Part shown: piece by piece, positions 43,136 to 59,973 of the stretch
How positions within the stretch are numbered: the stretch's first letter is position 1
Layout of the letters: the number at the start of each line of letters is the position of its first letter
Assembly (NCBI GenBank): GCA_965223705.1
Contig: OZ245015.1
Coordinates: 448,001 to 512,000 of the forward strand
Direction of reading: 5' to 3'
Length of the DNA stretch: 64,000 nt
Source: Myxococcota bacterium
GTDB taxonomy: Bacteria; Myxococcota_A; UBA9160; UBA6930
Program-made: the position numbers and the translations under genes
Notes under the pieces: model-generated
What the model saw: the letters and a program-made list of their open reading frames with translations, nothing else
Database searches by the model: none
Told to the model about the DNA's origin: nothing

Positions 43136-43474
43136 TCACATTCCGAGCTCGAGCCTCGCCGCTTCGGACATCATGGTGGGATCCCACGGCGGATCCCAAA
43201 CGAGATCGAGTTGAACGTTGCCAACCCCGGCGACGCTTCGCGCTTTGGCCTCGACTTCCGGGGGCAGCGTCTCGGCGACGGGGCACATCGGCGACGTCAG
43301 CGTCATGCGGATACCGACGTCACAAGCGTCAGAGACGTCGACGTCATAGATGAGACCCATGTCGTAGATATTCACAGGAATCTCGGGATCGTAAATCGTC
43401 CGCAAGATGTCGATGACGTCGAGTCGAATCGATTCGGCTTTCGACGGTGCTTGCTGCGAGATCTCTTCACTCAC
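43136..43474 (-). CDS. sufT: SUF-associated DUF59/SufT protein
   Basis: DPEIPVNIYDMGL, TSPMCP, WDPPW. Confidence 0.9.
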   Translation of the reverse strand: MSEEISQQAPSKAESIRLDVIDILRTIYDPEIPVNIYDMGLIYDVDVSDACDVGIRMTLTSPMCPVAETLPPEVEAKARSVAGVGNVQLDLVWDPPWDPTMMSEAARLELGM

Positions 43475-43483
43475 TGGGGTTCC

Positions 43484-43936
43484 TCATTCTGTCTTGACCG
43501 TCTCGCCGTTGCCGGCGACCGCCGCGCGGAGGGTGTGCCAGGCCAGCGTCGCGCACTTGACGCGCATCGGGAATTCTCGGACACCGGCGAAGATTGCGAG
43601 CTTGCCGAGGCCCTCGGTATCCGGCGGGACCGTCGGATCGCTCGTCACCAGTTCTTTGAACTCTTCGAAGAGGCGCTCGGCTTCGGCCAGCGGCTGTCCT
43701 TTGAGGCGTTCCGTCATCATCGACGCCGAGGCCTTGGAAATGGCGCAGCCGGAGCCTTCGAAAGAAACGTCTGAAATGTTCTCGCCGTCGAGCTCCAAGT
43801 ACACGGTGATCTTGTCGCCGCAGAGCGGATTGTCGCCGCGCGCTTCGCGGTTCGCGTCCGGCAAGCGCCCGAAGTTTCGCGGGTGCTTGTTGTGATCGAG
43901 AATCGTCGTTTGGTAGAGCTCGCGCAGGTCGGACAT
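43484..43936 (-). CDS. sufU: SUF sulfur-transfer protein
   Basis: NPLCGD, GCAIS.AS, RVKCA. Confidence 0.92.
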   Translation of the reverse strand: MSDLRELYQTTILDHNKHPRNFGRLPDANREARGDNPLCGDKITVYLELDGENISDVSFEGSGCAISKASASMMTERLKGQPLAEAERLFEEFKELVTSDPTVPPDTEGLGKLAIFAGVREFPMRVKCATLAWHTLRAAVAGNGETVKTE

Positions 43937-45159
43937 CAGGTCAAGAGCTCGATGGTGGTGAGGATCGCCTCGTACAGGCGATCGAGATCTTCCGTGGTGT
44001 TGTAGACGCCGAGCGAGGCGCGCGCGGTCGCCGGCACACCCAAGCGTTCCATGAGCGGCTGCGCACAGTGGTGTCCCGCGCGAATCGCTACCCCCTCTTG
44101 ATCGAGCACGGTGCCGATGTCGTGGGGATGAACGCCTTCAATCACGAACGAGAGAACGCCGGTCTTGCGCGGCGCGGTTCCGATCAACGTGACCTCGGGA
44201 ATCGATTCGAGTCGTTCCGTTCCGTACGCGAGAAGCGCTTCTTCGTGTGCTTCGATGGCCGAAAGTCCGACGGATTCGACGTAGTCGATCGCGGCGCCGA
44301 GGCCCACCGCCCCGGCGATATCCGGGGTGCCCGCCTCGAAGCGCTGCGGGATATCAGCGTACGTCGTTTCTTCGAAACTCACCGTTCGGATCATATCGCC
44401 GCCGCCCTGGTAGGGCGGCATCGAGGCGAGGAGGTCGGCGCGACCGTAGAGCGCACCCATCCCGCTCGGGCCGTAGAGCTTGTGGCTCGAAAAGACGTAG
44501 AAGTCGCAGCCCAGGGCTCCTACGTCGACGGGGAACCGCGGCACGGCCTGGGCACCATCGACGAGTACGACGGCGCCGCGCCCATGCGCACGCTCGACAA
44601 TTTGAGCGACCGGGTTGATCGTCCCCAGCGCGTTCGACACGTGCCCCACAGCGACGATCCGCGTGCGCTCGGTCAGCAGTGCATCGAAAGCGTCCATGCG
44701 AAGCACGCCGCGATCGTCGATCGGCGCCACGCGCAGCTTCGCACCGGTCACTTGGCAAATCATCTGCCAGGGGACGATGTTCGCGTGGTGCTCCATCTCG
44801 GTGATGAGAATCTCGTCCCCCGAGCCGAGCGTCGTTCGTCCGAACGTCTGTGCGACGAGGTTGATCGCTTCCGTGGCGTTGCGCGTGAAGACGATCTCGC
44901 GAGGCTCTCGCGCGCCGAGAAAGCGCGCCACTTTCGCACGCGCCTCATCGTGGAACCGCGTGGCCGTCGCGGAGAGCTCGTAGACCCCGCGGTGGATGTT
45001 CGCGTAGTTCTGCCGGTAGAAAGCGTCCATCGCTTCGAGGACGACGCGCGGCTTTTGGGCGCTGGCGGCGGTATCCAGATAGACCAGCGGCTTGCCGTTC
45101 ATCGGGCGCTCGAGGATCGGAAAGTCCCGACGCACCGCAGTGACGTCGAAGGCGCTCAC
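43936..45159 (-). CDS. sufS: Cysteine desulfurase
   Basis: YLDTAASAQKP, SSHKLYGP, RAGHHCAQP. Confidence 0.95.
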   Translation of the reverse strand: MSAFDVTAVRRDFPILERPMNGKPLVYLDTAASAQKPRVVLEAMDAFYRQNYANIHRGVYELSATATRFHDEARAKVARFLGAREPREIVFTRNATEAINLVAQTFGRTTLGSGDEILITEMEHHANIVPWQMICQVTGAKLRVAPIDDRGVLRMDAFDALLTERTRIVAVGHVSNALGTINPVAQIVERAHGRGAVVLVDGAQAVPRFPVDVGALGCDFYVFSSHKLYGPSGMGALYGRADLLASMPPYQGGGDMIRTVSFEETTYADIPQRFEAGTPDIAGAVGLGAAIDYVESVGLSAIEAHEEALLAYGTERLESIPEVTLIGTAPRKTGVLSFVIEGVHPHDIGTVLDQEGVAIRAGHHCAQPLMERLGVPATARASLGVYNTTEDLDRLYEAILTTIELLT

Positions 45160-46331
45160 AACGCCGCCCCGAGCTGCGCGAGCGAAGATTCGAGGAGCCG
45201 TTCCCGCAAGCTGTCGTCAGAGATCTCCGCCAGGGCTTCGGCCGCGAAGCCGCGGACCAGGAGCCGCCCCGCTTCCTGTGGATCGATCCCTCGGGTGCGC
45301 AGGTAGTAGAGCGCTTCCGCGTCGAGTTGGCCGATCGTCGCCCCGTGTGTACAGCGCACGTCGTCGGCGTAGATCTCGAGCTGGGGTTTCGTGTCGACTT
45401 CCGCTCGCTCGTCGAGGAGGAGATTCGGGTTGCTCTGGAGCGCCTGCGTCTTCTGGGCGTCCGGTCGAACCACGACGCGACCTCGGAATACACCGCGCCC
45501 GGTTCCCGACACGACGCCCTTGTAGAGCTGATCGCTCGATCCGTGAGGAACCGCGTGGTCGACCACGGTGTGGTGATCGCAGACACCGCCTTCGGAAGTG
45601 CCGAAGAGACTCCGCAAGCGGCATGACGCGCCTTCGCCGGCGAGGGTGACCGCCAGGTCTTGACGCGTGAACGCTCCTTCGAGGGTCACGGCGTGGTAGA
45701 GCAATTGGCTGTCGCTCGCCTGGTGGATCGCGACCGTACTCGTCGAAGCGGAGCGGCCACTCTTGTGGAACACGAATTCGACGACCGCTCCCGGCTCGAG
45801 AAACAACTCGACGACGTCGTTGCGCCAACACGTTTCATCCGCCGGCGCTTCTCCGATCCGGATGCGGGCCGTCGCGTTCGCCCCGATGCGGCCCAAGACA
45901 CGCGCCGCGTGCGCCTGCGCGCGGCGAAGTGTCGGAAAGGTGATGTTGATCGGTTCGGCGATGTGGGCACCCGATTCGACCGAGAACGCTGTGCCGGCGC
46001 CGAGGAGGGCCGTGTTGAGCGCCGCCACCGGATGTGATTTCAGGTCGATGAGCTCGCCGAGCCCCGGTGCGGGGTCGGACCGGAGTGGAGCGACCGAGAC
46101 GCCTTCTTCCCGACCGATCTCGACGTGGACGGGTTCGAGAGACAGGGCGTGTTCTTCCGCGATGACGGAAGTGAGATTCGTGTAGCGCCACTCTTCGACC
46201 CGCGTGTCCGGAAAACCGCGATCCGAAAAATCGCGGAGTGCGGCCGCTCGCAAACCGGCGTGCGGGCCTTCGTGGGCGGCCGCGATCGCTGCCCACCGGT
46301 CGGTGGCCTTCGCAAAGGTCGCGCCGCTCAC
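45156..46331 (-). CDS. sufD: Fe-S assembly protein
   Basis: EEWRYT, PQLEIYADDVRCTHG, YLRTRGI. Confidence 0.92.
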   Translation of the reverse strand: MSGATFAKATDRWAAIAAAHEGPHAGLRAAALRDFSDRGFPDTRVEEWRYTNLTSVIAEEHALSLEPVHVEIGREEGVSVAPLRSDPAPGLGELIDLKSHPVAALNTALLGAGTAFSVESGAHIAEPINITFPTLRRAQAHAARVLGRIGANATARIRIGEAPADETCWRNDVVELFLEPGAVVEFVFHKSGRSASTSTVAIHQASDSQLLYHAVTLEGAFTRQDLAVTLAGEGASCRLRSLFGTSEGGVCDHHTVVDHAVPHGSSDQLYKGVVSGTGRGVFRGRVVVRPDAQKTQALQSNPNLLLDERAEVDTKPQLEIYADDVRCTHGATIGQLDAEALYYLRTRGIDPQEAGRLLVRGFAAEALAEISDDSLRERLLESSLAQLGAAL

Positions 46332-47083
46332 GTCGCGGCTCCGTCCTCTTCGATCCAGCCGTAACCCTTTTCTTCGAGCTCGAGCGCCAGCTCCTTGCCT
46401 CCGGAGCGGACGATGCGGCCCTTCGAAAGCACGTGGACGTGGTCGGGAACGATGTAGTCGAGGAGCCGCTGGTAGTGCGTGATGACCAGCATGCCCCGCT
46501 CCGGTGAACGCAGATGGTTGACGCCGCCGGCGACGGTGCGGAGCGCGTCGATGTCGAGCCCCGAATCGGTCTCGTCCAAGATGGCGAGCTTGGGTTCGAG
46601 CAACAACATTTGCAGTACTTCGTTGCGCTTCTTCTCCCCGCCGGAGAAGCCTTCGTTGATTGCGCGGTTCATCAAGTCTTCGGGCATCTCGACGAGCTTC
46701 ATCTTCTCTCGCACGAGCGTCAGGAAATCGAATGCGTCGAGCTCTGGCTCTCCGCGGTGGCCACGGATCGCATTGAGCGACGCTTTGAGGAAGTAGTTGT
46801 TGCCGACTCCCGGGATCTCGACGGGATACTGGAACGCGAGGAAGATGCCCTCCCGCGCGCGTTCTTCGGGCGCCAAGTCGAGGAGTGCGCGGCCTTCGAA
46901 CAGCACCTCACCTTCGGTGACTTCAAAATCGTCGCGCCCGGCGAGAACACCGGCGAGGGTGCTCTTGCCGGAACCATTGGGTCCCATGACCGCGTGGACC
47001 TCCCCCGGATCGATTCTCAAGTCGATCCCGCGGAGGATCGCCTTGCCGTCGGCGGAAGCGTGTAGATTCCGGATTTCGAGCAC
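46328..47083 (-). CDS. sufC: Fe-S assembly ATPase
   Basis: GPNGSGKST, FSGGEKKR, DETDSGLD. Confidence 0.95.
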   Translation of the reverse strand: MLEIRNLHASADGKAILRGIDLRIDPGEVHAVMGPNGSGKSTLAGVLAGRDDFEVTEGEVLFEGRALLDLAPEERAREGIFLAFQYPVEIPGVGNNYFLKASLNAIRGHRGEPELDAFDFLTLVREKMKLVEMPEDLMNRAINEGFSGGEKKRNEVLQMLLLEPKLAILDETDSGLDIDALRTVAGGVNHLRSPERGMLVITHYQRLLDYIVPDHVHVLSKGRIVRSGGKELALELEEKGYGWIEEDGAAT

Positions 47084-48537
47084 TAGCCCACGCTCCCTTC
47101 GAGGCTCACGCCGAGGAGTTGTTGCGCCTCGACGGCGAACTCCATCGGGAGCTCCTTGAGGACTTCTTTACAGAACCCGTTCACGATCATGGAAACCGCG
47201 TCTTCCTCCGACAGGCCACGCTGCCGGCAGAAGAACAATTGGTCCTCGCCGATCTTGGATGTCGTCGCTTCGTGCTCCACGGTGGCGCTTGAGTTCTTCA
47301 CCTCCACGTAGGGAAACGTGTGAGCGCCGCACCGATCGCCGATGAGGAGCGAATCGCATTGCGAATAATTTCTGGCATTCGAAGCTTTCGGCCCGATCCG
47401 GACCAGCCCGCGGTAGGCCTGGGAGCCATGGCCCGCGGAGATCCCTTTGCTGATGATCGTGCTGCGCGTGTTCTTGCCGATGTGCAGCATCTTGGTGCCG
47501 GTATCGGCTTGCTGGCGATTCGTCGTCATCGCGACGGAGTAGAACTCCCCGATCGATTCGTCGCCCTGAAGAATGCAGCTCGGGTACTTCCAGGTGATGG
47601 CGGAGCCCGTCTCGACCTGGGTCCAAGAAATCTTCGAGCGGCGTCCCGCACACTTGCCGCGCTTCGTCACGAAGTTGTAGATGCCGCCTTTGCCGTCTTT
47701 GTCACCCGGGTACCAGTTCTGAACGGTCGAGTACTTGATCTCCGCTTCCTCGAGCGCGACGAGTTCGACGACGGCTGCGTGCAACTGATTCTCATCGCGC
47801 ATCGGCGCGGTGCAGCCCTCCAGGTAACTGACGTAGGCGTTGTCTTCGGCGACGATCAGCGTGCGTTCGAACTGCCCGGTCTCCTGGGCGTTGATCCGAA
47901 AGTACGTCGAGAGCTCCATCGGGCAGCGCACGCCCTTCGGAATGAACGCGAACGACCCGTCGCTGAAGACGGCGGAGTTGAGTGCCGCGAAAAAGTTGTC
48001 GGAGTAGGGAACGACGGAGCCCAGATACTTCTTGACGAGCTCTGGGTGATTCTTGACCGCCTCGGAAAACGAACAGAAGATGACACCGTGTTTCTCGAGT
48101 TCGGCCTTGTAGGTCGTCGCCACGGAGACGCTGTCGAAAACGGCATCGACGGCCACCCCGGCGAGCCGCTTCTGTTCTTCGAGCGGGATTCCGAGCTTGT
48201 TGTACGTATCGAGAAGCTCGGGATCGACTTCGTCGAGGCTCGACAGCTGCTTCTTCGGTTTCGGAGCGGCGTAATAGTACATGTCCTGGTAGTCGATCTT
48301 CGGGTAGTCGACTTGCGCCCAGGTCGGCTCACTCTCTTCTTCGAGCATCGAAACAAACCGCCGGTAAGCGCGAAGGCGCCAATCGAGGAGCCACTCGGGC
48401 TCCTCCTTCTTCTCTGAGATGAGCCGGACGGTGGCTTCCGACAAGCCCTTCGGTGCGTATTCCGTCTCGATATCGGTAGCGAAGCCGTACTCGTAGTCGC
48501 GGTTCGCCAGTTTTTCGAGCGTTGTCGATTCGGACAT
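47083..48537 (-). CDS. sufB: Fe-S assembly protein
   Basis: GQFERTL, EGCTAP, YNFVTKR, EHEATTS. Confidence 0.95.
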
Positions 48538-48565
48538 CGGGTTGGAGATTCCTTCGGAAAGTTCT

Positions 48566-49045
48566 CTAGTTCGCCGGCCGGTCGGCGACCAAGCGGAGTG
48601 CTGCAATAGATCGCTCTCCCGGGGTCACCAGGTCGGCCAGCGTGATCTCAGCGAGTGCGTCGCGCACCGCCTCGTTGATTCGCAGCCAGGGATCGCGAAT
48701 GCGACAGGTCGACTCCTGGTCGCAATGGCCCGGGCCGGCAGTGCACGCCATGAGGGCGATCGGTCCTTCGAGCGCCTCGATGATGTCGTTGACACGGATC
48801 TCTTCCGGCGGACGCGAGAGGGCGTAGCCGCCTTTCGCTCCCCGTTGAGATACGAGGAGCTCCTCTTGCGCCAGGTTCTTCAAGATCTTGCTCACCGCCG
48901 GGTAGGGCAGCAGCGTCGCCTCGGACATCTCACGCGCGTTGCGAGTCGCAGCGTCGGGGCCGGCGCTACCCGCCGCCTCGGCCGCTTCGGCAAAATGTGC
49001 CAGAAGGACCAGGCCGTAGTCCGTGAGCTTGCTGATGCGAAGCAT
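48566..49045 (-). CDS. Rrf2-family SUF regulator
   Basis: [16 protein letters not shown], three Cys (C..C..C). Confidence 0.88.
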
Positions 49046-49053
49046 CGGCTGAG

Positions 49054-49104
49054 AATATCGGACTGAATTGGTGCTGTAAATATCGGACCGTTCCAGTCCG
49101 GTTT
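49054..49104. promoter_or_regulatory. Putative Rrf2 operator upstream of suf
   Basis: AATATCGGAC repeated 25 bp apart; the second copy forms the palindrome CGGAC-N7-GTCCG. Confidence 0.5.
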
Positions 49105-50311
49105 ACTCGCCGCCGTCGAGCTTTTCGAGATCCGTCCAGTTTCCGATCGGGTGTAAAAAGGCCCAGTTCCCGTGGGACCAATCCAAGGGGGGAGCCTGCA
49201 TCCGGCCCACGCGACAGATCCTGGAGGGAGCCAACCGTGCCAGGGTGTCCGCCGCTCGGGTCGCGTCGGCTCCGAACCCCGCGAGTCCCAGGGCCGCGAG
49301 CGAGCCGCGCATTGGACCGAGGCCTTGTAGCAACGCCGCGAGGTCGTCGAAGGGGTGGAGTCGCAAGAAGCGGTGGAGCGGGTGAGGGCGCGCTTCGTGT
49401 CGGCTCTCGCGCACCACGGCCCAGCGGTTCTCGGAGTCCGCCGCGACCCGAACCCCGGGCTCTGTCGCCGCTCGAAACGCCGCTTCCGTGACCGAATCGC
49501 CAAACGCGACCCGCACTTCCACCGGGCACGCGCCCCGCGGAAGCTCTTCTTCGACCGCGGCGAACGCGTCGGCCAGAGCGTCCATCAACGGATCGATGGC
49601 GGAGCGGTGCGCGTAGACGCCCCGCGGCGAGAGGCAACCCAGTTGATCCCACAACGCGACGTCGAAGGCGATGGCGTGCGCCGTACGTTCGATTTCTGCT
49701 TCACCACCCGCGCTACCGACTACGGCGAAGGATTCGCGATGTCCGTGACCGACGAAGCGCCGGTCGGCGCGGACGCGCGCGCCGAGGGCGCGGATCGTCT
49801 CGTCGTTCCCGTAGGCGACGACGCAGTCCGCGTCGAGAAAAGGGAGCCACGACGGGTCGTCTGGCCCCGGAAGATCGCGAACCGAGACACAAGCAGCGTG
49901 GGCGGGGCTCGTCGCTTCGAGCGCTTCGCGAAACGCCGCCGCGGAAACGGGATCGTGGCGGGCGGGCTTTGCGCGAACGTCGGCGCGCGTTACCAAGGGC
50001 AACAACAGCGCCGACCACGTTGGCATCGGCAGAGCGCCGGCGAGAACCAAGGCGATGTCCCGGAACCCGGTGAAGCGTCGCGGTCCGTTCGCGAAGTGCG
50101 GTTCGACGCTACGGAGAAAAGCCGCGCTGGAGAAGTGTTCCCAGGCGTGGGCGAGGCCGGCTCGAATGACGGCCGGGTGAAACCCCGTCGCGGGGGGAAG
50201 CCTTTCCTCGAGAAGTTTCCGAGGGAGGCCGTCCGCGTGTGACCACGTGGCGACGAACTCGGCCAACCGTCCGAGGTGTTCTTCGTCCGAAAGACCGTCG
50301 AGGGCGCTCAC
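49103..50311 (-). CDS. LuxC-like acyl-CoA/acyl-protein reductase
   Basis: VAYGNDET, GHRESF, DVALWDQLGCLSP (catalytic Cys), MQAPP..WSHG; GTGA overlap with luxE. Confidence 0.8.
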   Translation of the reverse strand: MSALDGLSDEEHLGRLAEFVATWSHADGLPRKLLEERLPPATGFHPAVIRAGLAHAWEHFSSAAFLRSVEPHFANGPRRFTGFRDIALVLAGALPMPTWSALLLPLVTRADVRAKPARHDPVSAAAFREALEATSPAHAACVSVRDLPGPDDPSWLPFLDADCVVAYGNDETIRALGARVRADRRFVGHGHRESFAVVGSAGGEAEIERTAHAIAFDVALWDQLGCLSPRGVYAHRSAIDPLMDALADAFAAVEEELPRGACPVEVRVAFGDSVTEAAFRAATEPGVRVAADSENRWAVVRESRHEARPHPLHRFLRLHPFDDLAALLQGLGPMRGSLAALGLAGFGADATRAADTLARLAPSRICRVGRMQAPPLDWSHGNWAFLHPIGNWTDLEKLDGGE

Positions 50312-51396
50312 GGCAGCGCGTCGATCAATTGCGCGTCCGCGGCGACGGAGCACCCGCGCACATCGCTACCCGAGCCGCGGCCCAGAACCTCGAAGCCCGT
50401 AGGAAGCTCCCGCCCGAGGTCGGCGGTCTGCAGCGCGAGCACGCTCCCGGTGTTCGCGAGGTCGAAGATGCGGATCATGCCGACCTCGCCGGGTGCGCAA
50501 TCGGTTCCGTTCTCGGGGCGTGTCACGCGCACCCGTACCCACGGCGGCCGCTCTTTGTGGCGCGGGACTCCCGGCCGCGCGAGCACGCTGTCGTAGAACT
50601 GGCTGCCGAGTTCAGTCATTCCGTACTGATTCACGATGCGATGTTCCGGAACGCCCAATCGGTCCGTAAGGGCTCCGTAGAGCTCGTTCCGAGGGACTTC
50701 TCGCGAGCGCCCCTTGAAGCCGCCGGTTTCCATGACCCGCGCCGCGGCACCCAGGGAAACGCGGGCGCCAGCGGCCTCGAGCGCGTCGAGCAGGTGCACG
50801 AAGGCGAACGCCGTTCCCGCGACGAGGACCGGCGCATCGCAGGCCTCGGCCGCTTCTAGCGCGTCGCGGAGGGGCGCGAGCGCCAACGCACCTTCGCGCA
50901 GGAAGAACGCACTCTCGCGGTCACCGCGTTCGCGGCGCATGACGTCGAACATGTACGAGAGCGATGAGTCCGACGCTTCGTCGAGAGACGGGGCGAGAAG
51001 AAGCATCCGGACCGGTCCATCGACATCGGGCAGCACGCCGCGTGTAAAGCTCGCGCGGAGAGACGCTTCGTAGAGCTCCGTCGTGTCGAGGTAGAGCGCG
51101 CCGCGCGTACTCCCTGTCGTTCCGCTGGTCCGGAACACTCGGACCGTCCTTTTCTCTTCGAAGCTGCAGAGGCGGGCGGATTTGAACGCACCGGTCGGGA
51201 CGCAGGGAATTTCGGTCCAGGACGAGAGAGCGTCGGGACGCACGCCGAGGCTTTCACAAAACGCCCGGTACGGATCGCAGCGCTCGAACTGGTAGCGGAA
51301 CACACGGAGGGCCAGCTCGTCGAAGCGCGCCTCGGAATCGTCCCAGGGCTCCCCCATCCAGGAGAGCACATCGCGGTCGATCGCCTCTCGGGTCAC
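50308..51396 (-). CDS. LuxE-like acyl-protein synthetase
   Basis: FRTSGTT, ETGGFKGR, YGMTEL, TADLG, FEVLGR...RGCS (C-terminal Cys). Confidence 0.85.
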   Translation of the reverse strand: MTREAIDRDVLSWMGEPWDDSEARFDELALRVFRYQFERCDPYRAFCESLGVRPDALSSWTEIPCVPTGAFKSARLCSFEEKRTVRVFRTSGTTGSTRGALYLDTTELYEASLRASFTRGVLPDVDGPVRMLLLAPSLDEASDSSLSYMFDVMRRERGDRESAFFLREGALALAPLRDALEAAEACDAPVLVAGTAFAFVHLLDALEAAGARVSLGAAARVMETGGFKGRSREVPRNELYGALTDRLGVPEHRIVNQYGMTELGSQFYDSVLARPGVPRHKERPPWVRVRVTRPENGTDCAPGEVGMIRIFDLANTGSVLALQTADLGRELPTGFEVLGRGSGSDVRGCSVAADAQLIDALP

Positions 51397-52667
51397 CCGA
51401 TGACCTCGCAGAGCGTCTCGAGCGCTGCGTGGAATACCTCTCGCTCGATGTTCAGAGCCGGCGTGATCGACAGCACGGAGCCCAGGGGGCCGGAGGGCAA
51501 GGTGATTACGCCGCGCTCGAGCGCGGCGCGGCACGTCGCGATTGAGCTTTCCGGTCGCGCGAATTCGATGCCGATCATCAAGCCGAGCCCGCGAACGCAA
51601 CGGACGCTCGCACGAGCGTCGAGCGCGTCCGTCAAGAACGCGCGGGCTTCGTCGCCGACGCGCGCGGCGCGCTCGGGAAGTTTCTCTTCCTCGATCACGG
51701 CCATGTTGGCCAGCGCGGCCGCGCAGCTCGGCGGATGTCCGAGGAAGGTCTGGGTATGCAACGCCTCGCCCGTCGACACCGGCCAAGCGTCCATCACGTG
51801 CTCGAGACCGAGACACGCGGAAATCGGCATCCCGCCGCTCAGCCCTTTGCCGACGCACATCAAGTCGGGGACTACGTCTTCGTGCTCGCAAGCGAACCAG
51901 GTCCCGGTCCGACCGAAGCCCGTGTACACCTCGTCCGCGATGAGGAGGTAGCCCTGATCATCGCAAAGCGATCGCAACTCGCGGAGGAAGCCCCGCGGAG
52001 GGACGACCTCGCCGCCGCGACCGAGGACGGGCTCGACGAGAACGGCGCCCACCGGGGTCGGGCAGGTTTCCGCTGCGCGAAGGACGTCCGCTGCGTCGCC
52101 GTAGCGCGCAAAGCGCGTCGTTTCGGGAAGCCGCCCGACGAACGGCGCTCGGAAGCGCTCGCCGTGGGTGACCGCCAACGTGCCGAGGGAGACGCCGTGG
52201 TAGGAGCCTTCGAAAGCGACGACACCGTCGCGGCCTGTGGCGAGCGACGCGGTCTTGAGTGCGGTTTCAACGGCATCGGCGCCGCTCGACACCAGGGTGA
52301 CCCGGGCCTTGGCGCCGCCGGGGTAGCGACCCGAGAGCGCTTCGAGCAGCTCGACCTTGACCGCCGACGGGTAGACGTCGCCCATCCCGTGCAGCAACGC
52401 GCCGGCTTGTTCGCGGACAGCGGCGACCACGCGGGGGTGGCTGTGCCCGGTGTTCGCGACGCCGAACGCGGCGGATAGGTCGACGAACCGGTTGCCGTCG
52501 ACGTCCCAGACGTTGGCACCGGACGCGCGCTCCCAGAAAATGGGAAGCGGATCGATGCAAGTGACGTCGGAGGTCTCGGCTTGCGCGAGGCGCGAGGCGA
52601 GGGCGCGGGAACGCGGCCCCGGGATTTCGCTGCGAGCTTCCGGCGGGTATGTCTGCGGGGCCGCCAT
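51393..52667 (-). CDS. Class III PLP aminotransferase
   Basis: DVDGNRFVD, FEGSYHG, EPVLG.GG, ADEVYTGFGRTG, GKGLSGG, TFLGHP. Confidence 0.9.
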   Translation of the reverse strand: MAAPQTYPPEARSEIPGPRSRALASRLAQAETSDVTCIDPLPIFWERASGANVWDVDGNRFVDLSAAFGVANTGHSHPRVVAAVREQAGALLHGMGDVYPSAVKVELLEALSGRYPGGAKARVTLVSSGADAVETALKTASLATGRDGVVAFEGSYHGVSLGTLAVTHGERFRAPFVGRLPETTRFARYGDAADVLRAAETCPTPVGAVLVEPVLGRGGEVVPPRGFLRELRSLCDDQGYLLIADEVYTGFGRTGTWFACEHEDVVPDLMCVGKGLSGGMPISACLGLEHVMDAWPVSTGEALHTQTFLGHPPSCAAALANMAVIEEEKLPERAARVGDEARAFLTDALDARASVRCVRGLGLMIGIEFARPESSIATCRAALERGVITLPSGPLGSVLSITPALNIEREVFHAALETLCEVIG

Positions 52668-52697
52668 TGCGCCAGTGTAGCGAGTAGACTTCCGCCG

Positions 52698-53225
52698 ATG
52701 GCCGGAAGCGCCAACTGCTATGTCGCGCTCGGTGCGAACCTCGGAGATCGACTCGAGCACCTGGAGCTCGCGTTGCGCTGCTTCTCGGGCGATCCCCGCC
52801 TCGACGTCGTGGCGGTGTCGCACGTGTATGAGACCGCCCCGGTGGGCGGACCCGCGGACCAACCCGCTTACTTGAACGCGGCGGCGGCTCTGCGCGCCGA
52901 CGTCTCTCCCGAGGATCTACTTGCGAAGCTCCTCCGCATCGAATCGCGCGCCGGTCGCCGTCGCGACGGTGTCCGCGACGCGCCCCGGGAGCTCGATCTC
53001 GATCTGCTCGATTTCTCCGGGCGCAGCATCGAGTCGCCGGAGCTCGTGTTGCCCCACCCGAGGCTCCATCTGCGCGCTTTTGCCTTGTTGCCCCTGCGAG
53101 ACGTCGCACCCGATTGGGTGCATCCGGTAACCGGACGTACCGTAGATGCTCTGTTGGAAGAGGCGGTGGACCGCCGCGACGCGCGCCGCCTAGAAGGAGT
53201 CCGCCTGTGGCCATTGTCGCCGTAA
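52698..53225 (+). CDS. folK: HPPK
   Basis: VALGANLGDR, YLN, PRELDLDLL, LPHPR...RAFAL.P. Confidence 0.93.
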   Translation: MAGSANCYVALGANLGDRLEHLELALRCFSGDPRLDVVAVSHVYETAPVGGPADQPAYLNAAAALRADVSPEDLLAKLLRIESRAGRRRDGVRDAPRELDLDLLDFSGRSIESPELVLPHPRLHLRAFALLPLRDVAPDWVHPVTGRTVDALLEEAVDRRDARRLEGVRLWPLSP

Positions 53226-53512
53226 GCCTTTCTCCCGTCGGTGAGGGCGTCAGCGTCGGTGCCGACGTCGCCCGAGCCCTCGCCGTGTTGAAGAATCAAG
53301 ACCGGGTTCGCTGGGAGCTCGGCGCCATGTTTACGACCTTGGAAGGCGAGTTGCCCGAGATCTTCGATCTGATCCTCGCGATGCGAGAAGCCATCTTCGA
53401 GGCGGGCGCCCTGCGCGTCGGTGCCGTCATCAAAGTCGACGAGCGGCGCGACCGTTCGGTGTCGATCGACGACAAACTCGCCTCGGTGGAAGCGCGCCTC
53501 GAGGATCAGTAG
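53207..53512 (+). CDS. MTH1187/YkoF thiamine-binding family protein
   Basis: SLSPVG, AMFTTLEG, RV...KVDER; GTG with AGGAG SD. Confidence 0.85.
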   Translation: MAIVAVSLSPVGEGVSVGADVARALAVLKNQDRVRWELGAMFTTLEGELPEIFDLILAMREAIFEAGALRVGAVIKVDERRDRSVSIDDKLASVEARLEDQ

Positions 53513-53543
53513 CGTTGCTCGCGGAAGCAGTGGGAGACCCACC

Positions 53544-54089
53544 ATGACCAAGAGGATCGAGGCGCCTTTCATCCTGGGGCGGAGACAGTTCTTGGCGGCG
53601 ACAGCTTGCGTGCTCGCGTCACCGGTTCAGGCCGTCGCGCGCGACGCTGCACCGGCGCTTTCCGAGTCGACGCGTACGGCTCTCGCAAAGAGCAAGTTCG
53701 TCTACGTCTCCCCGATTCAGTCAAACGGTGAGGAGAGTCGCTGCCACGGCGAGGTGTGGTACGGCTGGCTCGAGGGCTCGGTCTTCATGACGTGCGCCTC
53801 GGACAGTTGGAAGGTGCGGGCGGTGAAGAAGGGCCTCGACCGCGCGCGAATTTGGGTGGGCGACTACGGGCGCTGGCGGAAGGCGCTCGGAGAGAACCGG
53901 GATTTCTTGAATGGGCCCCGCTTCGAGGCGGCGGCCAGCGTCTCCGAAGACACGGATCAGGTGGCGAGGCTCCTCGCGGAGCTCGCCCGCAAGTACCCGA
54001 AGGAGTTCCCCGGCTGGAAGGACCGAATGGAGTCGGGCCACCGCGACGGCTCGCGGTTGCTACTCCGCTACACGCCGGTTTCCGCTTAG
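53544..54089 (+). CDS. Tat-exported PPOX/split beta-barrel-like protein
   Basis: GRRQFL Tat motif with VQA cleavage site; VW...SWKV...LARKY pattern. Confidence 0.55.
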   Translation: MTKRIEAPFILGRRQFLAATACVLASPVQAVARDAAPALSESTRTALAKSKFVYVSPIQSNGEESRCHGEVWYGWLEGSVFMTCASDSWKVRAVKKGLDRARIWVGDYGRWRKALGENRDFLNGPRFEAAASVSEDTDQVARLLAELARKYPKEFPGWKDRMESGHRDGSRLLLRYTPVSA

Positions 54090-54178
54090 CCGGGCCCCTC
54101 CGGGGCTTTCGTCAAGCGAGCTCTTCTGACGGCCGATACGACCTGTAGCCCTCGTGTGATGGGCAACCGGAGACGGCC

Positions 54179-54541
54179 ATGCGGAAACTCTTGTCCTTGG
54201 CGAAACAAACTGGCGGCGGGTTCGCCCTCGCGGCGGCACTCGTGCTCGCTCCCGGCGGTGTCACGTTGGTCCACGCCGGAACCTCGGATCGGCAAACCGT
54301 TCGCGGTCCGGTCGCGGGTGTCAAGGACGAGGCGATCTGCACCGCCGACGATCAGCCCGGCCCGGCCAAAGCGCTCGCCGCGCACCGGGAGATGCGGGCG
54401 AAGCTCGCGGCCGAGATGGAAGCCGCCAAGGCATCTGGCGAGTTCATTCCGCTCGACGGCAATGGCTACAACTACGCCCTCGAAGATCGGCAGCGCGGGG
54501 AACTCATCCGCGCAGCGCTCGAAGCGGCGGAGAAGCGGTAG
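54179..54541 (+). CDS. Secreted hypothetical protein
   Basis: GGAG SD, signal peptide ending VHA. Confidence 0.65.
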   Translation: MRKLLSLAKQTGGGFALAAALVLAPGGVTLVHAGTSDRQTVRGPVAGVKDEAICTADDQPGPAKALAAHREMRAKLAAEMEAAKASGEFIPLDGNGYNYALEDRQRGELIRAALEAAEKR

Positions 54542-54607
54542 CCCGAAGTCACATTGCGTCGGATCGTCTGAGCTACCGTTTCGCGAACTCGCGGAAAGGG
54601 GCTCACA

Positions 54608-55636
54608 ATGAAGCTCGGACTCATGGTCGGGTACTCCGGCGGCTCGATGACCATCGACACAGAATCAATCCTCGAGGCCGAGCGTCTCGGGTTTGACTCC
54701 GTATGGACGGCCGAGGCTTACGGCTCTGACGCGGCTACACCGCTGGCCTACATCGCCGCGCTGACGGACCGCATCAAGCTCGGTACCGCGATCTTCCAGA
54801 TGCCGGCGCGCACGCCCGCGATGACCGCGATGACGGCGATGAGTCTCGACGCATTGTCCGGCGGGCGCTTCATCCTCGGGCTCGGCCCGAGTGGTCCCCA
54901 AGTGGTCGAAGGGTGGCACGGGGTGCCCTACGGCCGCCCGCTGACGCGCACGAAGGAATACATCCAGATCGTGCGGAAAATCTTGGCGCGCGAAGGACCC
55001 CTCGAGCACAAGGGCTTTCACTACGAGATCCCCTACATGGGAGATGGCTCGACCGGGCTCGGCAAGCCGCTAAAGAGCATTCTCCGCGGTCGGCCCGACA
55101 TGGAAATCTTCACCGCGTCCATCGGTCCGAAGGGCATCGCGTGCAGCGGCGAAGTCGCGGACGGTCTGTTTCCGGTTTGGATGGATCCGCAGAAGCCCGA
55201 ACTGTTCGACCCGTATCTCGCCGAGGGGTTCGCGAAGCGAACCGACGGCAAGAAGCGGGAGACGTTCCGCATGGCGCCGTTCGTCACCTGCGTGATGGGC
55301 GACGACCTCGAACGTTGCCGCATGCCGGTGAAGGGGATGCTCGCCCTCTACATCGGCGGCATGGGGGCGCGCGGGAAGAATTTCTACAACGACTATGCGA
55401 AGCGCATGGGCTACGAAGCCGAAGCCGTGGAGATCCAAGATCTCTACCTCGCGGGCAACAAGAACGAAGCGATGGCCAAGGTCCCCGACGCGCTGGTCGA
55501 TGAGGTCGCGCTGGTCGGCTCGGCGGATCGCATTCGCGATCAGCTCGCCAGGTGGAAGGGCACGACGGTGAACGACATGCTCATCTCGTGCAATCAGAAG
55601 CCCGCGCTGCGTGTGTTGGCCGAGTCGATTCTCTAG
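54608..55636 (+). CDS. LLM-class F420-dependent oxidoreductase (Rv3520c-like)
   Basis: [45 protein letters not shown]. Confidence 0.88.
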
Positions 55637-56646
55637 TCGACGCGCTTCCGCGCTCGAGTGAGCGCGTCGATCGCGTCGTCGATGTCAGCGCGCGTGACAC
55701 CCAGGTGCGTCACCGCGCGGAAGCGCGTCGCGGCGAAAGCGATCAAGAGGACGCCTTCCTCACGCGCCGCTTCGAGAAACCGCGATCCGGCGTCACAGTG
55801 AAACATCACGATGTTGGTTTCCGGCTCTTCGACGGCGAAACCGCGCTCGCGAAGTCCGGTGGCGAGCCGCCTCGCGTTGTCGTGATCTTCGGCCAGCCGG
55901 TCCAGGTGATGCTCGAGGGCGTAGAGTCCGCCGGAGGCGACGATCCCCGCTTGTCGCATCCCGCCGCCCATACGCTTGCGGAACCGGTGAAGCGTTTCGG
56001 CGTAGGCCGAACTCGTCGCGACGAGCGAGCCCACCGGCGCACCGAGTCCTTTCGACAGGCAGCACGAGACCGTGTCGAAGGGAGCGGCAAAATCGCGGAG
56101 GGGAACCCCCGTGGCGACGGAGGCGTTCCAGATGCGTGCGCCGTCCAGGTGAATTGCCAGGCCGCCCGCACGACCGGCGTCCGCGATTTTTCGAATCGTC
56201 TCGAGCGGGAAGATTCTCCCGCCCGCGGCGTTATGGGTGTTCTCGATGGCCACCACGGTCGCCGGAGCTCGGTGGGGATCTCGCGGGGGGAGCGCTTCGC
56301 GGAGGTCGTTTTCGTCGAAGAGGCCCGTCTCGCCCAACGTGTGGATGTGCAACCCCGCCAGTGCCGAAGCCGCGCCGGATTCGTAGCGCAGGATGTGCGC
56401 GCCGTGCCCCGCGATGACGACGTCCCCCGGACGGGTCAACGTCTGCAACGCGACTTGGTTGGCCATGGTTCCGGACGGGAAGAAGAGCGCCGTCTCTTTC
56501 CCGAGCAGGGACGCAACGCGCTCCTGCAAACGATTCACGCTCGGATCTTCGGCGAAGACGTCGTCCCCGACGGGGGCGTCCGCCATCACTTTTCGCATGG
56601 CATCGGTAGGGCGCGTCAACGTGTCGCTGCGGAGGTCGATCGGCAT
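55633..56646 (-). CDS. ltaE: Low-specificity L-threonine aldolase
   Basis: [35 protein letters not shown]. Confidence 0.93.
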
Positions 56647-56702
56647 GCGGAAAAGCATAGCCCCGGCGGCGACCGCTCCCGAGGGTACGTTAGCGTTGCG
56701 CC

Positions 56703-57473
56703 GTGACCTCCGAAGAGCGAAATCGAGAAGCGCAGCTCGCCGATGCTTGGCGCCGCGCATCGCGCGTTTCGATCCTCACGGGAGCCGGCCTTTCCACGGC
56801 GTCGGGTATTCCCGATTTCCGCTCCCCAGGTGGGCGTTGGGAACGCTACCAGCCCGTTCCGCTCCCGGAGTTTCTCGAGAGCGAGACGTCTCGCGAAACG
56901 TATTGGGGCTACAAGCGCGAGACGTGGCCGGTCATCCAGGCCGCCGAGCCGAATCCCGCCCACGACGCACTGGCCTCACTCGGCCGAGCCGGGAAAATCG
57001 CGTTGTTGGTCACCCAGAACGTCGATGGTCTGCACGAACGCAGCGGGTTTCCGACAGACCGCCTGGTGAACATTCACGGCACCGACGCTCGGGTCCGGTG
57101 TTTGTCGTGCAGCGAGGGGTTCAGTCGGGAGGCGATTCAACATCGGCTCGAGGAAGGCGAGCGGGTCCCGCGGTGCGCGTGCGGAGGGTTGCTCAAACCC
57201 GAGACGATCTCCTTTGGACAAAGTCTCGTCGAAGACGATTTGCAACGCGCGTTCGAGGGCGCGGCGAAGTGCGACTTGTTCGTCGCCGTGGGAACGTCTC
57301 TGGTGGTCGGTCCGATCAACGCGATGTTTGACATCGCGGAGCGGGCGGGAGCCGAGACCGCGATCTTGACCGCGAGCGAGACACCTTTCGATGAGCGGGC
57401 GGGACACCGGCTCCACAGTCCACTCGAAACGGTGCTGCCGGCCTTGTGTGCCGGCGTTCTCGGAACGCACTAG
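56703..57473 (+). CDS. cobB: Sir2/CobB NAD-dependent protein deacylase
   Basis: [24 protein letters not shown], CxxC/CxC Zn site, GTSL.V. Confidence 0.92.
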
Positions 57474-57517
57474 TCCCGAAATCGGCAGGTAGAAGGCGTC
57501 TCGCGGCGTTTTTTTGT

Positions 57518-57545
57518 TTGACTCCGTCGGTGGAATTCGTAACAT
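57518..57545 (+). promoter_or_regulatory. sigma70-type promoter for the histone gene
   Basis: TTGACT-N16-TAACAT with an upstream T-tract. Confidence 0.55.
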
Positions 57546-57633
57546 CCGGCGGCCCGCAACGAACGGGATCGCGTTTCGCGGCTCGGCGGGTCCATCGAAA
57601 AGTTAAAACCGTTCACGGGGAAAGAGGTAGGAC

Positions 57634-57849
57634 ATGGCAGCACGAAGAAAGAAGACGACCCGCCGCCGCTCGTCGAAGCCGGCAGAGCTGATTATTTCGA
57701 AGGCTCGCACGAAGGCTTCCGTCAAGAAGTGCAACGTTGGCGCGGAATTCTACGAGGCCCTCGACAAGGTCGTCCGCGACATGATCAAGGGCGCCGAGGC
57801 GCGCGCGATCGGCAACAAGCGCAAGACGCTGAAAGCGGTCGATCTCTAG
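57634..57849 (+). CDS. Bacterial histone-fold protein with a basic N-terminal tail
   Basis: 71 aa; alpha1 LIISKARTK, alpha2 AEFYEALDKVVRDMIKGAEARA, RKTLKAVDL (RKTxxxxD) terminus; AGAGG SD. Confidence 0.88.
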   Translation: MAARRKKTTRRRSSKPAELIISKARTKASVKKCNVGAEFYEALDKVVRDMIKGAEARAIGNKRKTLKAVDL

Positions 57850-57877
57850 CAGCGCTTTGCCGGAAACGGCACGATAA

Positions 57878-57919
57878 AAGGCGGCGCGGGTCAAAGCCCG
57901 CGCCGCCTTCGTCGTTTTT
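57878..57919. terminator. Bidirectional hairpin terminator
   Basis: 13-bp stem AAGGCGGCGCGGG/CCCGCGCCGCCTT flanked by A- and T-runs, between convergent genes. Confidence 0.75.
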
Positions 57920-59081
57920 AACCGTCCTCTTGGTCTTCGAGGGGTTCCGTGAAATGCGCGGGAACGACGCTTCGGTCGAGGTTGGCTCCGACTCGGAACA
58001 GATGAACGAGGGAGACTCGCCGCGCGACCTCTTCGAGGCCGAGCCCGCGTCGCGCCGCCACGTACTCGAGGCCCGCGCTGGCAATGGTGAGCGCTTTGCG
58101 GAGTGCCGCGGGTAGCGTTTCGGCATCGCCCAGCGGAAGGCGGTCCGCCACCGCGACCCGGTTCGCAAGCGCAATCAGACGAAACAACGCCGCCTGCCTG
58201 TGTCCCTCGTCGAGTGCCTGCAAAGCGAGGAGCAAACTCGGGGTGTCCTCCCGCAGGTCCGGAAGCCGCGGGATCCACACCGGAAGGGACCAGGTTCCGA
58301 TCTCGTGTTCTTCTGGCACGAGATCCCACGTGTGCTCCGGGACGAGGGCGTAGATCTCCAGCGAGGTTTCCTCGTCGGGGAACCCGAGATCCTGCAAGCG
58401 CCCTTCTCTCCAACGCCGCGCCCACTCGCGGTTTTCCGTCGGAAGCTCCCACGACACGGCCTGCAACATGCGGAAATAGCGCCAGTAGTCCTTCTGGAAG
58501 AGGATCCGCAGGAACGTGGTCACGTCCGCAAGATCATCCTGCTCGCGCCGCGCGGTGTAGTAGAACTGACCGTCGAGACTTTGGGCCGCGTCCGGAACTT
58601 TCTCTTCGTCCTCTTTGGTTTTCATGAAGACGTCGACCCGGTCCGCTAGCCAGAGGTAGACGAGCTCGGGATCGAGTTCGTGGCTCACTCGGAGCGCGGC
58701 GTCCTCGCCGGAATTGACGAGTGCGACCATCCACTCGGAGAACTTTGTGGGATCGGGCTCCCGGATGCCCCACGTATCGAGATCCACGCACGCGACCCAC
58801 TGCTCCGGCGTCGCGATGCCGAGCAGCCAGCCGGCATCGTGGAGCCCGATCGCTTTGGCGGTAAAACAGAGCTCGGCTTCCGGCAGCAACGGGACCACGT
58901 TTTCGGGTTCATCGAGGAGACCGAGAAGTTCGGCACGCGCCGCAACCGGGGTTTCGCAGATCACGGCGACGCACTGATCCGCGTCGAGCGAATTCAGTGT
59001 CGCAGAGGCCGCCGCGCGGTCTCGCCGAGCGAGACGCAGCAGATCGCCAGACAGTTCCCGAGGCGCCGCAACGGGTTTCAT
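57918..59081 (-). CDS. DUF6178-like protein
   Basis: ATPEQ..CVDLDTW, RWREGRLQDLGFP, LANRVAVAD, LFRVG recalled from this family. Confidence 0.65.
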   Translation of the reverse strand: MKPVAAPRELSGDLLRLARRDRAAASATLNSLDADQCVAVICETPVAARAELLGLLDEPENVVPLLPEAELCFTAKAIGLHDAGWLLGIATPEQWVACVDLDTWGIREPDPTKFSEWMVALVNSGEDAALRVSHELDPELVYLWLADRVDVFMKTKEDEEKVPDAAQSLDGQFYYTARREQDDLADVTTFLRILFQKDYWRYFRMLQAVSWELPTENREWARRWREGRLQDLGFPDEETSLEIYALVPEHTWDLVPEEHEIGTWSLPVWIPRLPDLREDTPSLLLALQALDEGHRQAALFRLIALANRVAVADRLPLGDAETLPAALRKALTIASAGLEYVAARRGLGLEEVARRVSLVHLFRVGANLDRSVVPAHFTEPLEDQEDG

Positions 59082-59158
59082 AGCCGCAATCTAGCGCGCG
59101 CGGCGTCAAAGCTATGATCCCTGTCCGTGATGTGTTCCGGACGAGGAGGCGGGCTCCC

Positions 59159-59764
59159 GTGATCAGGCTCCCCGAGATTCGAGGCGCGCTCCGGGCCAAG
59201 ACGCCCGCGGAGATGGATCCCGAGGGGCGCAACCAGGCGGCCGTGGCGATGGTTTTCCGCGACGAGCCCGAAGCGACCGAAGTGCTCTTCATCGAGCGCG
59301 CGAGCCATCCGGCGGATCCGTGGTCCGGCCACATGGCCTTTCCCGGCGGGCGTGTCGATCCGGTGGACGCATCCCTCCGGGCGGCCGCCGAGCGCGAGAC
59401 GCGGGAGGAAGTCGGTGTCGAGCTCCGCGGTGCCGAATATCTGGGACGGCTCGACGACATCGAGGGCTATCGGGGCGGTCGCAAAGTGGGCCTCGTGATC
59501 AGCGCGTTCGCGTACTACCACCCGGAGCCGGAAGAGCTCATCCCGTCCTACGAAGTCGCCGAGGCACTTTGGGTGCCGGTCTCACGGCTCTGGGATCCCA
59601 CGCACCGGGTCGATCATCACCACCAGGGGGCGGGGCCGTATCCGGGAATTCAGGTCAGCGAGTCGGCGAGCCACATCGTGTGGGGCCTCACGTACCGCTT
59701 CGTGCAGAACTTCCTCGACTCACTGGGCTTGGACCGCGCCGGAGGCGCCGGGCCGCATCCCTAG
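59159..59764 (+). CDS. Nudix CoA pyrophosphatase
   Basis: DPWSGHMAFPGG, RETREEVG, VWGLT; GTG after GAGGAGG. Confidence 0.88.
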   Translation: MIRLPEIRGALRAKTPAEMDPEGRNQAAVAMVFRDEPEATEVLFIERASHPADPWSGHMAFPGGRVDPVDASLRAAAERETREEVGVELRGAEYLGRLDDIEGYRGGRKVGLVISAFAYYHPEPEELIPSYEVAEALWVPVSRLWDPTHRVDHHHQGAGPYPGIQVSESASHIVWGLTYRFVQNFLDSLGLDRAGGAGPHP

Positions 59765-59949
59765 CGTTCGTTCGAATACCCCGCGCATTCTCGGACCGGA
59801 AGCTCGGGGTAGCGGCGAAAGGCCGGGTTCTCGTCGGCCAAGCCGCAGCGATAGAACGCACTGCCTCGCCGATTGCGGGTGATGCGGGCGTGTCGGCAAG
59901 CGGCGCACAAGCCCGCCGTGCCGTTTTCGTCGCGACTCGGTTTTCCCAC
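59761..59949 (-). CDS. Small Cys-rich hypothetical protein
   Basis: GLCAAC...FYRC...YPELPVREC; TAGACT 6 nt before GTG. Confidence 0.65.
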   Translation of the reverse strand: MGKPSRDENGTAGLCAACRHARITRNRRGSAFYRCGLADENPAFRRYPELPVRECAGYSNER

Positions 59950-59973
59950 GCGGCGAGTCTACAATCCGCGACC

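What the first reader, a model, noticed from the sequence alone, without database searches (positions are those of the whole stretch)
49103..52667. Aminotransferase-LuxE-LuxC operon without luciferase: putative carboxylic acid to aldehyde to amine pathway
Seen: three genes translationally coupled by GTGA overlaps (51393-51396, 50308-50311) with intact LuxE and LuxC catalytic Cys, and no luxAB or luxD. Established: LuxE/LuxC reduce fatty acids to aldehydes, and class III transaminases aminate aldehydes, as in reductase/transaminase logic for fatty amines. Inference: an uncharacterised fatty-amine or amino-lipid pathway, or the reverse amine catabolism.
Basis: partly seen in the sequence, partly recalled or inferred. 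Interest (0 to 1): 0.7.

Follow-up and report, generated by a model that had tools for sequence, protein, structure and literature searches.

The report
Likely nitrile-free route to preQ1
Three overlapping genes probably turn an acid group into an amine to make preQ1, the precursor of the tRNA base queuosine, standing in for the two standard enzymes (QueC and QueF), which this bacterium and most relatives carrying the trio appear to lack; this is inferred from genomes and has not been assayed.

Summary
In detail: class III aminotransferase, LuxE-like and LuxC-like genes, two GTGA overlaps, catalytic Cys/Lys intact. Acid to aldehyde to amine is well supported; a fatty substrate is not. The LuxC-like protein lacks the C-terminal segment that forms the myristoyl cleft, and no lipid genes recur nearby. 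Best reading: the trio converts 7-carboxy-7-deazaguanine (CDG, the QueE product) to preQ1, replacing QueC+QueF. This genome has folE, a divergent queE, tgt, queA and queG, but no queC, queF or yhhQ was found. In 201 genomes of the phylum, 167 have this LuxE type without QueC and 30 have QueC without it. One has both (its queC lies in a DNA-modification island) and 3 have neither. In metagenomes luxE-luxC abuts queD (15 of 80 loci, one clade) or follows queE-aminotransferase (2 of 80). Caveats: no assay; kin are not independent; no canonical QueD here; thiamin-linked relatives exist. The scan noted this trio and this hypothesis before on other DNA; I took the lead from those notes and tested it. 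Six literature searches found no description.

The parts
51393..52667 (-). Class III (fold type I) PLP aminotransferase, 424 aa; proposed 7-formyl-7-deazaguanine to preQ1 transaminase. PLP Lys274, Asp245, Thr307; family-specific Asp97, Arg217, His304
50308..51396 (-). LuxE-like acyl-protein synthetase (short ANL adenylating enzyme), 362 aa; Lys228, Arg340, swinging-arm Cys349; proposed to adenylate CDG and hold it as a Cys thioester
49103..50311 (-). LuxC-like acyl-thioester reductase (ALDH fold), 402 aa; Cys226; lacks most of the C-terminal cleft-forming segment of luminous LuxC
51393..51396 (-). GTGA stop/start overlap, aminotransferase to LuxE-like
   Evidence: four-base overlap in 69 of 77 related loci
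50308..50311 (-). GTGA stop/start overlap, LuxE-like to LuxC-like
   Evidence: four-base overlap in 57 of 74 related loci
52698..53512 (+). Context only: divergent folK (HPPK) and a thiamine-binding-protein-family ORF, 30 bp from the aminotransferase start; synteny within the order, not seen in distant families
48566..49045 (-). Context only: Rrf2 regulator heading the suf operon, 57 bp downstream of the trio; synteny within the order only

Best explanation
The trio is a QueC/QueF-independent route to preQ1 for queuosine tRNA modification. The LuxE-like enzyme adenylates the carboxyl of 7-carboxy-7-deazaguanine (CDG, made by QueE) and takes it up as a Cys349 thioester. The acyl group passes to Cys226 of the LuxC-like enzyme and is reduced by NAD(P)H to 7-formyl-7-deazaguanine. 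The aminotransferase converts that aldehyde to 7-aminomethyl-7-deazaguanine (preQ1), which Tgt, QueA and QueG use. Shown: genes, folds, catalytic residues, distribution, linkage. Inferred from LuxCE mechanism: the three reaction types. Inferred from genomics only: the substrate.
For: (1) Pathway hole. This genome has folE, a QueE-like radical SAM gene, a tgt with the Cys/Val pocket motifs of preQ1-using enzymes, queA, queG and four GUN tRNAs. It has no QueC (its two weak hits are asparagine synthases), no QueF (weak hit is FolE) and no YhhQ. (2) Order sample of 61 genomes: no full-length QueC (all hits 31 bits or less, nearly all PP-loop only) and only weak QueF-model hits (31 bits or less), while 56 of 61 have the QueE-like gene. 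(3) Phylum sample of 201: LuxE-type only 167, QueC only 30, both 1, neither 3. None of the 26 QueC+QueF genomes has this LuxE type. 128 of 134 LuxE-type genomes outside the order have a QueE-model hit (counted by hand from 42, 48, 80). (4) Exceptions fit: G228's two queC lie with TGT-like, DndB-like and FolE2 genes. G175 lacks the LuxE type that its four family mates have and carries adjacent queC-queF. Two of the three double negatives also lack a QueE hit. (5) Linkage: queD directly after luxC in 15 of 80 metagenome loci, CxxxHGH motif read in 13; queE directly before the aminotransferase in 2 of 80, one with fused LuxE-LuxC (72, 114); queE about 3 kb upstream in G106. (6) LuxC lacks the long-chain cleft element.
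Against: No enzyme assay. Related genomes are not independent, and no species tree was built, so the Fisher P overstates. The 15 queD-linked loci form one clade. This genome's only PTPS has ExxHGH (PTPS-III, folate type by PMC5041015), not the QueD motif, so the source of CPH4 is unexplained; family f32 mostly lacks PTPS (2 of 14). The QueE-like protein scores 77 bits against a cut-off of 206. None of the 80 closest loci has a que gene nearby, and 36 of 39 phylum loci have no que or folE neighbour. Six LuxE-type genomes have a QueF-model hit (56-64 bits); the one inspected lacks the catalytic Cys (96). The aminotransferase was not found adjacent in 11 of 39 phylum loci and was not sought elsewhere in those genomes. 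Relatives at 38% identity sit behind TPP riboswitches.
Confidence: 0.8

Rival explanations
1. Thiamin salvage: the trio reduces and aminates the pyrimidine carboxylate PCA to the aminomethyl-pyrimidine that TenA converts to HMP.
For: LuxE relatives (38-40%) in Pantoea and Azospirillum lie with LuxC and an SDR-type reductase behind TPP riboswitches, and nest inside the same family in an unrooted tree with weak deep support. TenA is present here. A thiamine-binding-protein-family ORF is nearby. PMC11223231 proposes such carboxyl reduction for TPP-regulated oarX clusters.
Against: No riboswitch in window 44000-60000 (66) or in 12 metagenome loci. The TPP-linked loci have no aminotransferase. ThiC is present. 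TenA was not found in 2 of 5 LuxE-type genomes tested and is interrupted by a stop in a third. It does not explain the exclusion with QueC/QueF or the queD/queE linkage. The OarX paper's genetic tests of PCA salvage were negative in C. glutamicum.
Confidence: 0.07
2. First reader's fatty acid to fatty aldehyde to fatty amine (amino-lipid) pathway, as in tambjamine tail synthesis.
For: Closest solved relatives by sequence are LuxE and LuxC of 7XC6. Reductase plus omega-transaminase logic makes dodecylamine in tambjamine pathways (10.1101/2025.08.11.669332).
Against: The cleft-forming C-terminal segment is largely missing. No recurring ACP, LuxD, FAS or exporter among 150 flanking ORFs. The LuxE model's best fold matches are PaaK-type ligases, several for aromatic acids (LuxE itself resembles PaaK, so this is weak). 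It does not explain the QueC exclusion.
Confidence: 0.05
3. Another small acid/amine pair (for example a pterin or aromatic carboxylate, or amine catabolism in reverse); the exclusion with QueC reflects shared ancestry, and Q comes from an unknown salvage route.
For: folK is the divergent neighbour in 56 of 80 close loci and folE is near in 2 phylum loci. Canonical QueD is missing here. Lineage effects are not controlled.
Against: The folK link disappears outside the order. QueE would be left without a downstream step in over a hundred genomes. The within-family switch in G175 and direct queD/queE coupling in other clades are unexplained. An ATP-driven LuxE step argues against the catabolic direction (inference).
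Confidence: 0.08

Closest known systems
LuxC-LuxE fatty acid reductase of luminous bacteria (P. phosphoreum, PDB 7XC6; PMC9157457)
   Same: Same folds (LuxC model vs 7xc6_A: Z 38.2, rmsd 2.5, 390 aligned) and the same catalytic Lys/Arg/Cys and Cys (11, 67, 92, 93).
   Different: 18% structural identity for LuxC; far below equivalog cut-offs; C-terminal cleft segment largely missing; no luxAB or luxD adjacent; coupled to an aminotransferase.
QueC + QueF step of queuosine synthesis (CDG to preQ0 to preQ1; PMC13740343)
   Same: Proposed same substrate and product; both use ATP activation and NAD(P)H. The genomes keep folE, queE, tgt, and here queA and queG.
   Different: No homology. The route would go through a thioester and an aldehyde instead of amide and nitrile, with nitrogen from an amino acid, so no preQ0 would be made.
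Tambjamine alkylamine tail enzymes TamA/TamH and TabE/TabA (10.1101/2025.08.11.669332)
   Same: Acyl thioester reduction to an aldehyde followed by omega-transamination.
   Different: Those use ACP-bound C12 chains in secondary-metabolite clusters; here there is no ACP, a LuxE Cys carries the acyl group, and the genes are single-copy and near-universal in the order.
TPP-riboswitch LuxE-LuxC-SDR operons of Pantoea and Azospirillum (uncharacterised; SDR possibly OarX-like, not tested; PMC11223231)
   Same: Same LuxE family (38-40% identity) plus LuxC; plausibly also acting on a heteroaromatic acid.
   Different: An SDR instead of an aminotransferase (alcohol rather than amine product); riboswitch present there, none found here.

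Membership tests
lux fatty acid reductase (LuxCDE) | LuxE adenylation residues and C-terminal Cys | tested here: met
   K228, R340, C349 invariant in 104 of 104; match K238/R355/C364
lux fatty acid reductase (LuxCDE) | LuxC ALDH fold with catalytic Cys | tested here: met
   C226 in 126 of 126; Z 38.2 to 7xc6_A
lux fatty acid reductase (LuxCDE) | NCBIfam equivalog scores for LuxE and LuxC | tested here: not met
   54 vs 550 and 58 vs 750 (8)
lux fatty acid reductase (LuxCDE) | C-terminal P460-P488 element forming the long acyl cleft | tested here: not met
   Profile ends at about residue 458 and model at 464 of 488; tail median 16 vs 44 residues
lux fatty acid reductase (LuxCDE) | Operon with luxAB and luxD | tested here: not met
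   None adjacent in the window or among 150 flanking ORFs; luxD not searched genome-wide
Class III aminotransferase (PF00202) | Pfam score and PLP-binding Asp/Lys/Thr | tested here: met
   331 bits; D245, K274, T307 in 119 of 119
GABA / (acetyl)ornithine transaminases | Equivalog cut-off; substrate-binding Arg and the Glu/Arg switch (their roles recalled, not from a call) | tested here: not met
   Below cut-off in all 25 shown; HG-V/L for HG-R, Arg217 for Glu (116 of 119), no Arg at 400 among the commonest residues
De novo queuosine pathway | FolE, Tgt, QueA, QueG present | tested here: met
De novo queuosine pathway | QueE present | tested here: inconclusive
   Best matches are five QueE models, all below cut-off (77 vs 206); CxxxCxxC intact; conserved in 56 of 61
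De novo queuosine pathway | QueD with CxxxHGH motif | tested here: not met
   Only an ExxHGH PTPS in this genome; canonical QueD in many other trio genomes
De novo queuosine pathway | QueC and QueF | tested here: not met
   Not found in this genome (95% complete) or as strong hits in 60 relatives
De novo queuosine pathway | preQ1 formed from CDG; Q in tRNA | not testable with these tools
   Needs assay
TPP-regulated thiamin salvage operon | TPP riboswitch upstream | tested here: not met
   No Rfam hit of note in window 44000-60000 (66); found for the plasmid relatives

The most novel reading that the evidence does not exclude
Most lineages of this phylum, and several other uncultured groups, make preQ1 de novo without a nitrile: a LuxE/LuxC-type carboxylate reductase and a dedicated transaminase replace QueC and QueF. 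If so, LuxE/LuxC form a broad family of heteroaromatic-acid reductases (deazaguanine with an aminotransferase; a thiamin-derived acid with an SDR), of which the bioluminescence enzymes are one specialised branch. These genomes may also hide a non-canonical QueD.
Probability: 0.75. Interest if true: 0.88.

Novelty: new variant of a known kind. Interest (0 to 1): 0.8.

Why it matters
The passages of two 2026 reviews that I read give only one de novo route to preQ1, through QueC and the nitrile reductase QueF. A second route would reclassify many bacteria now read as queuosine auxotrophs as producers, including 167 of 201 genomes sampled here, which matters for where environmental queuine comes from. 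It would assign a function to a large orphan LuxE/LuxC family and offer a natural acid-to-amine cascade for heteroaromatic acids. One complementation test in laboratory E. coli can decide it.

Tried and rejected
Housekeeping GABA/ornithine transaminase: rejected. Luciferase-like gene at 54608 as a luxA stand-in: opposite strand, one of dozens of paralogue hits; a different LLM follows luxC in only 5 of 80 loci. folK and suf as pathway members: synteny within the order only. B12 radical SAM and cation-efflux genes inserted in some relatives: optional. Phage link: no relative in viral contigs (43, aminotransferase query) or annotated phages (58, LuxE query). Riboswitches: none found. Weak QueC and QueF hits in this genome: asparagine synthases and FolE. 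Two other CxxxHGH strings in the genome: one lies in a 2-oxoglutarate dehydrogenase-like ORF (read by eye), one in a short spurious frame. The ORF upstream of queE in L191 is not QueD. G191 (QueC+QueF) has a distant, more canonical LuxE (Pfam 178 bits) with LuxC and no aminotransferase seen in a 4 kb locus; I counted it as negative, and counting it positive gives 2/167/29/3 (88). No complex prediction was run. Literature searches found no description; the 2024 MMBR review on deazaguanines was not available, and subscription journals are largely outside the library.
Full report
Observation. The proteins belong to Aminotran_3, LuxE and LuxC by Pfam, but all fall below the NCBIfam equivalog cut-offs shown. 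AlphaFold models are confident (pLDDT 94 and 97). The LuxC-like model matches 7xc6_A at Z 38.2; the LuxE-like model matches PaaK-type ligases best and the resolved fragment of 7xc6_E at rmsd 1.7. LuxE K228, R340 and C349 are invariant in 104 of 104 aligned homologues, chosen from the 150 returned. They correspond to K238, R355 and C364 of P. phosphoreum. LuxC C226 is in 126 of 126.

Conservation. Named close loci are mostly labelled Myxococcota or Deltaproteobacteria MAGs. In 61 genomes of the order, the LuxE-like gene matched in 60 (a few only weakly), the aminotransferase in 59 and LuxC in 58. In the 80 best loci of 386, the order of genes and the overlaps are kept. Across 39 loci from other families the flanking genes vary: 150 of 153 flanking ORFs were scanned and no lipid-synthesis gene recurs. 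The aminotransferase was found near LuxE in 28 of those 39. The trio therefore behaves like a self-contained housekeeping module.

Against a fatty substrate. PMC9157457 (passages read) attributes the long myristoyl cleft of LuxC to the C-terminal segment P460-P488. The family profile ends at chain residue 447, about 458 in the paper's numbering, and the model's last residue aligns to 464. The tail after the HDG motif is a median 16 residues in the 90 of 126 sequences where the motif was found, against 44. The aminotransferase keeps the PLP residues but has Leu/Val where GABA and ornithine transaminases have the Arg of HGR, and Arg217 where they have Glu (the roles of those residues are recalled). 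An argD-like gene lies elsewhere.

The lead. At my reading was an acid-to-amine pathway of unknown substrate. Earlier scan notes offered two ideas: thiamin salvage (e1-5027126) and a route to preQ1 (e1-4788216; also e1-933149, e1-1151187, e1-7712262). They are unchecked AI notes; I used them as hypotheses and tested both.

Test 1, pathway hole. The genome (95% complete) has folE, two tgt genes over the equivalog cut-off, queA, queG, a QueE-like gene and tRNAs for Tyr, Asp, Asn and His. One Tgt reads DECTP and GGVSVGE, which I match by recall of the motifs to Cys158 and Val233, the preQ1-type residues of PMC3660597 (passages). No QueC, QueF or YhhQ was found; the weak hits are asparagine synthases and FolE. 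Other transporter families were not searched. In the 61-genome order sample no QueC- or QueF-model hit exceeded 31.2 bits, where true members score over 100, while 56 of 61, and 36 of 36 high-quality genomes, keep the QueE-like gene.

Test 2, distribution. In 201 genomes of the phylum, the single LuxE query found 154 at E 1e-30, QueC was found in 31 and QueF in 32. All 47 LuxE-negative genomes were re-searched with a profile: 14 of the 17 without QueC had the gene, some in fragments, while 28 of the 30 with QueC had nothing, one a 30-bit generic ligase and one a distant canonical LuxE. Final table: LuxE-type only 167, QueC only 30, both 1, neither 3. By family (49, counted by hand): 32 LuxE-only, 14 QueC-only, 2 mixed, 1 neither. 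The one double genome, G228, has its two queC genes among TGT-like, DndB-like and FolE2 genes, a DNA-modification-type island, and no QueF hit. G175 is the only one of five family members without the LuxE type and has adjacent queC and a long-form queF. The marker here is LuxE, not the whole trio, and kin are not independent.

Test 3, linkage. None of the 80 closest loci has a que gene nearby. Among the 80 best of 600 metagenome matches, queD follows luxC directly in 15, all in one clade, and queE precedes the aminotransferase in 2, from another clade. L191 reads queE, aminotransferase, fused LuxE-LuxC. G106 has queE about 3 kb upstream on the same strand. That is two or three separate linkage events.

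Test of the thiamin rival. Plasmid and chromid relatives in Pantoea and Azospirillum do sit behind TPP riboswitches, with LuxC and an SDR but no aminotransferase. No riboswitch was found here. This genome has both ThiC and TenA, so the rival is possible here, but TenA was not found in 2 of 5 other LuxE-type genomes and is interrupted in a third. PMC11223231 (first quarter and passages read) proposes carboxyl reduction in such clusters and reports negative genetic tests.

What remains unexplained. The only PTPS here has ExxHGH, which PMC5041015 (passages) assigns to folate-type PTPS-III, although FolB is also present. Canonical QueD is common in other trio genomes, but family f32 mostly lacks any PTPS. 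Either that protein is promiscuous, or another enzyme makes CPH4, or the reading is wrong for this lineage. The QueE-like protein is divergent.

Mechanism. Shown: anatomy, residues, distribution, linkage. From established LuxCE chemistry: adenylation, Cys-to-Cys transfer, hydride reduction. Inferred: CDG as substrate, 7-formyl-7-deazaguanine as intermediate (known as a hydrolysis product of QueF mutants; PMC13740343, passages), preQ1 as product. Confidence 0.8.

Novelty. Passages of two 2026 reviews list only FolE-QueD-QueE-QueC-QueF for de novo synthesis. Searches returned nothing describing this route; I saw only listings and abstract openings for most hits, could not read the 2024 MMBR review, and read no supplements. 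The tambjamine preprint (first fifth and passages) gives the chemical precedent. The scan has reported this trio and this hypothesis on other genomes. Verdict: a new variant of a known pathway, built from known enzyme families, directly testable; interest 0.8.

Noticed in passing
G000:C1:60950-62092 and C1:2191394-2192533 (L121, L122): Two Tgt paralogues over the equivalog cut-off (44% identical). The one beside queA has DHFLP and GGLGLGE where the other has DECTP and GGVSVGE, suggesting an altered base pocket or different substrate.
   Followed up: partly
G000:C1:4085984-4086454 (L120, L123): The only PTPS has the ExxHGH motif although FolB is present; a candidate non-canonical QueD.
   Followed up: partly
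Family f32, e.g. G120:C4:287751-287972 (L319): QueE in 14 of 14 but PTPS in only 2 of 14; six carry a weak QueF-like T-fold protein, and the one inspected lacks the catalytic Cys. It could be a QueD substitute.
   Followed up: partly
L175 (G228:C41:78000-95000): Island with two queC, a radical SAM gene, a FolE2-HTH fusion, a TGT-like gene and two DndB-like genes; resembles a 7-deazaguanine DNA-modification cluster.
   Followed up: partly
L176 5776-9321, L177 5676-11812: TPP riboswitch followed by LuxE-LuxC-SDR (plus an ABC transporter in Azospirillum): a likely thiamin-related acid-to-alcohol salvage operon.
   Followed up: partly
G140 (L138, L287): A 1.8 Mb single-contig genome keeps the trio, canonical QueD, QueE and tgt, while its TenA-like gene is interrupted by a stop.
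   Followed up: partly
window 43136-49045 (-): Rrf2-sufB-sufC-sufD-sufS-sufU-SufT-like operon directly downstream of the trio (names other than Rrf2 read by eye); Rrf2 is near in 45 of 80 close loci.
   Followed up: no
window 52668-52697: Only 30 bp separate the divergent start codons of the aminotransferase and folK, so their promoters must overlap coding sequence.
   Followed up: no
G000:C1:2596157-2597161 (L325): A second, divergent folE-like gene (40% to the first) in a variable region.
   Followed up: no
whole genome: About 80 tblastn hits to the luciferase-like monooxygenase at window 54608: a very large paralogue expansion.
   Followed up: no
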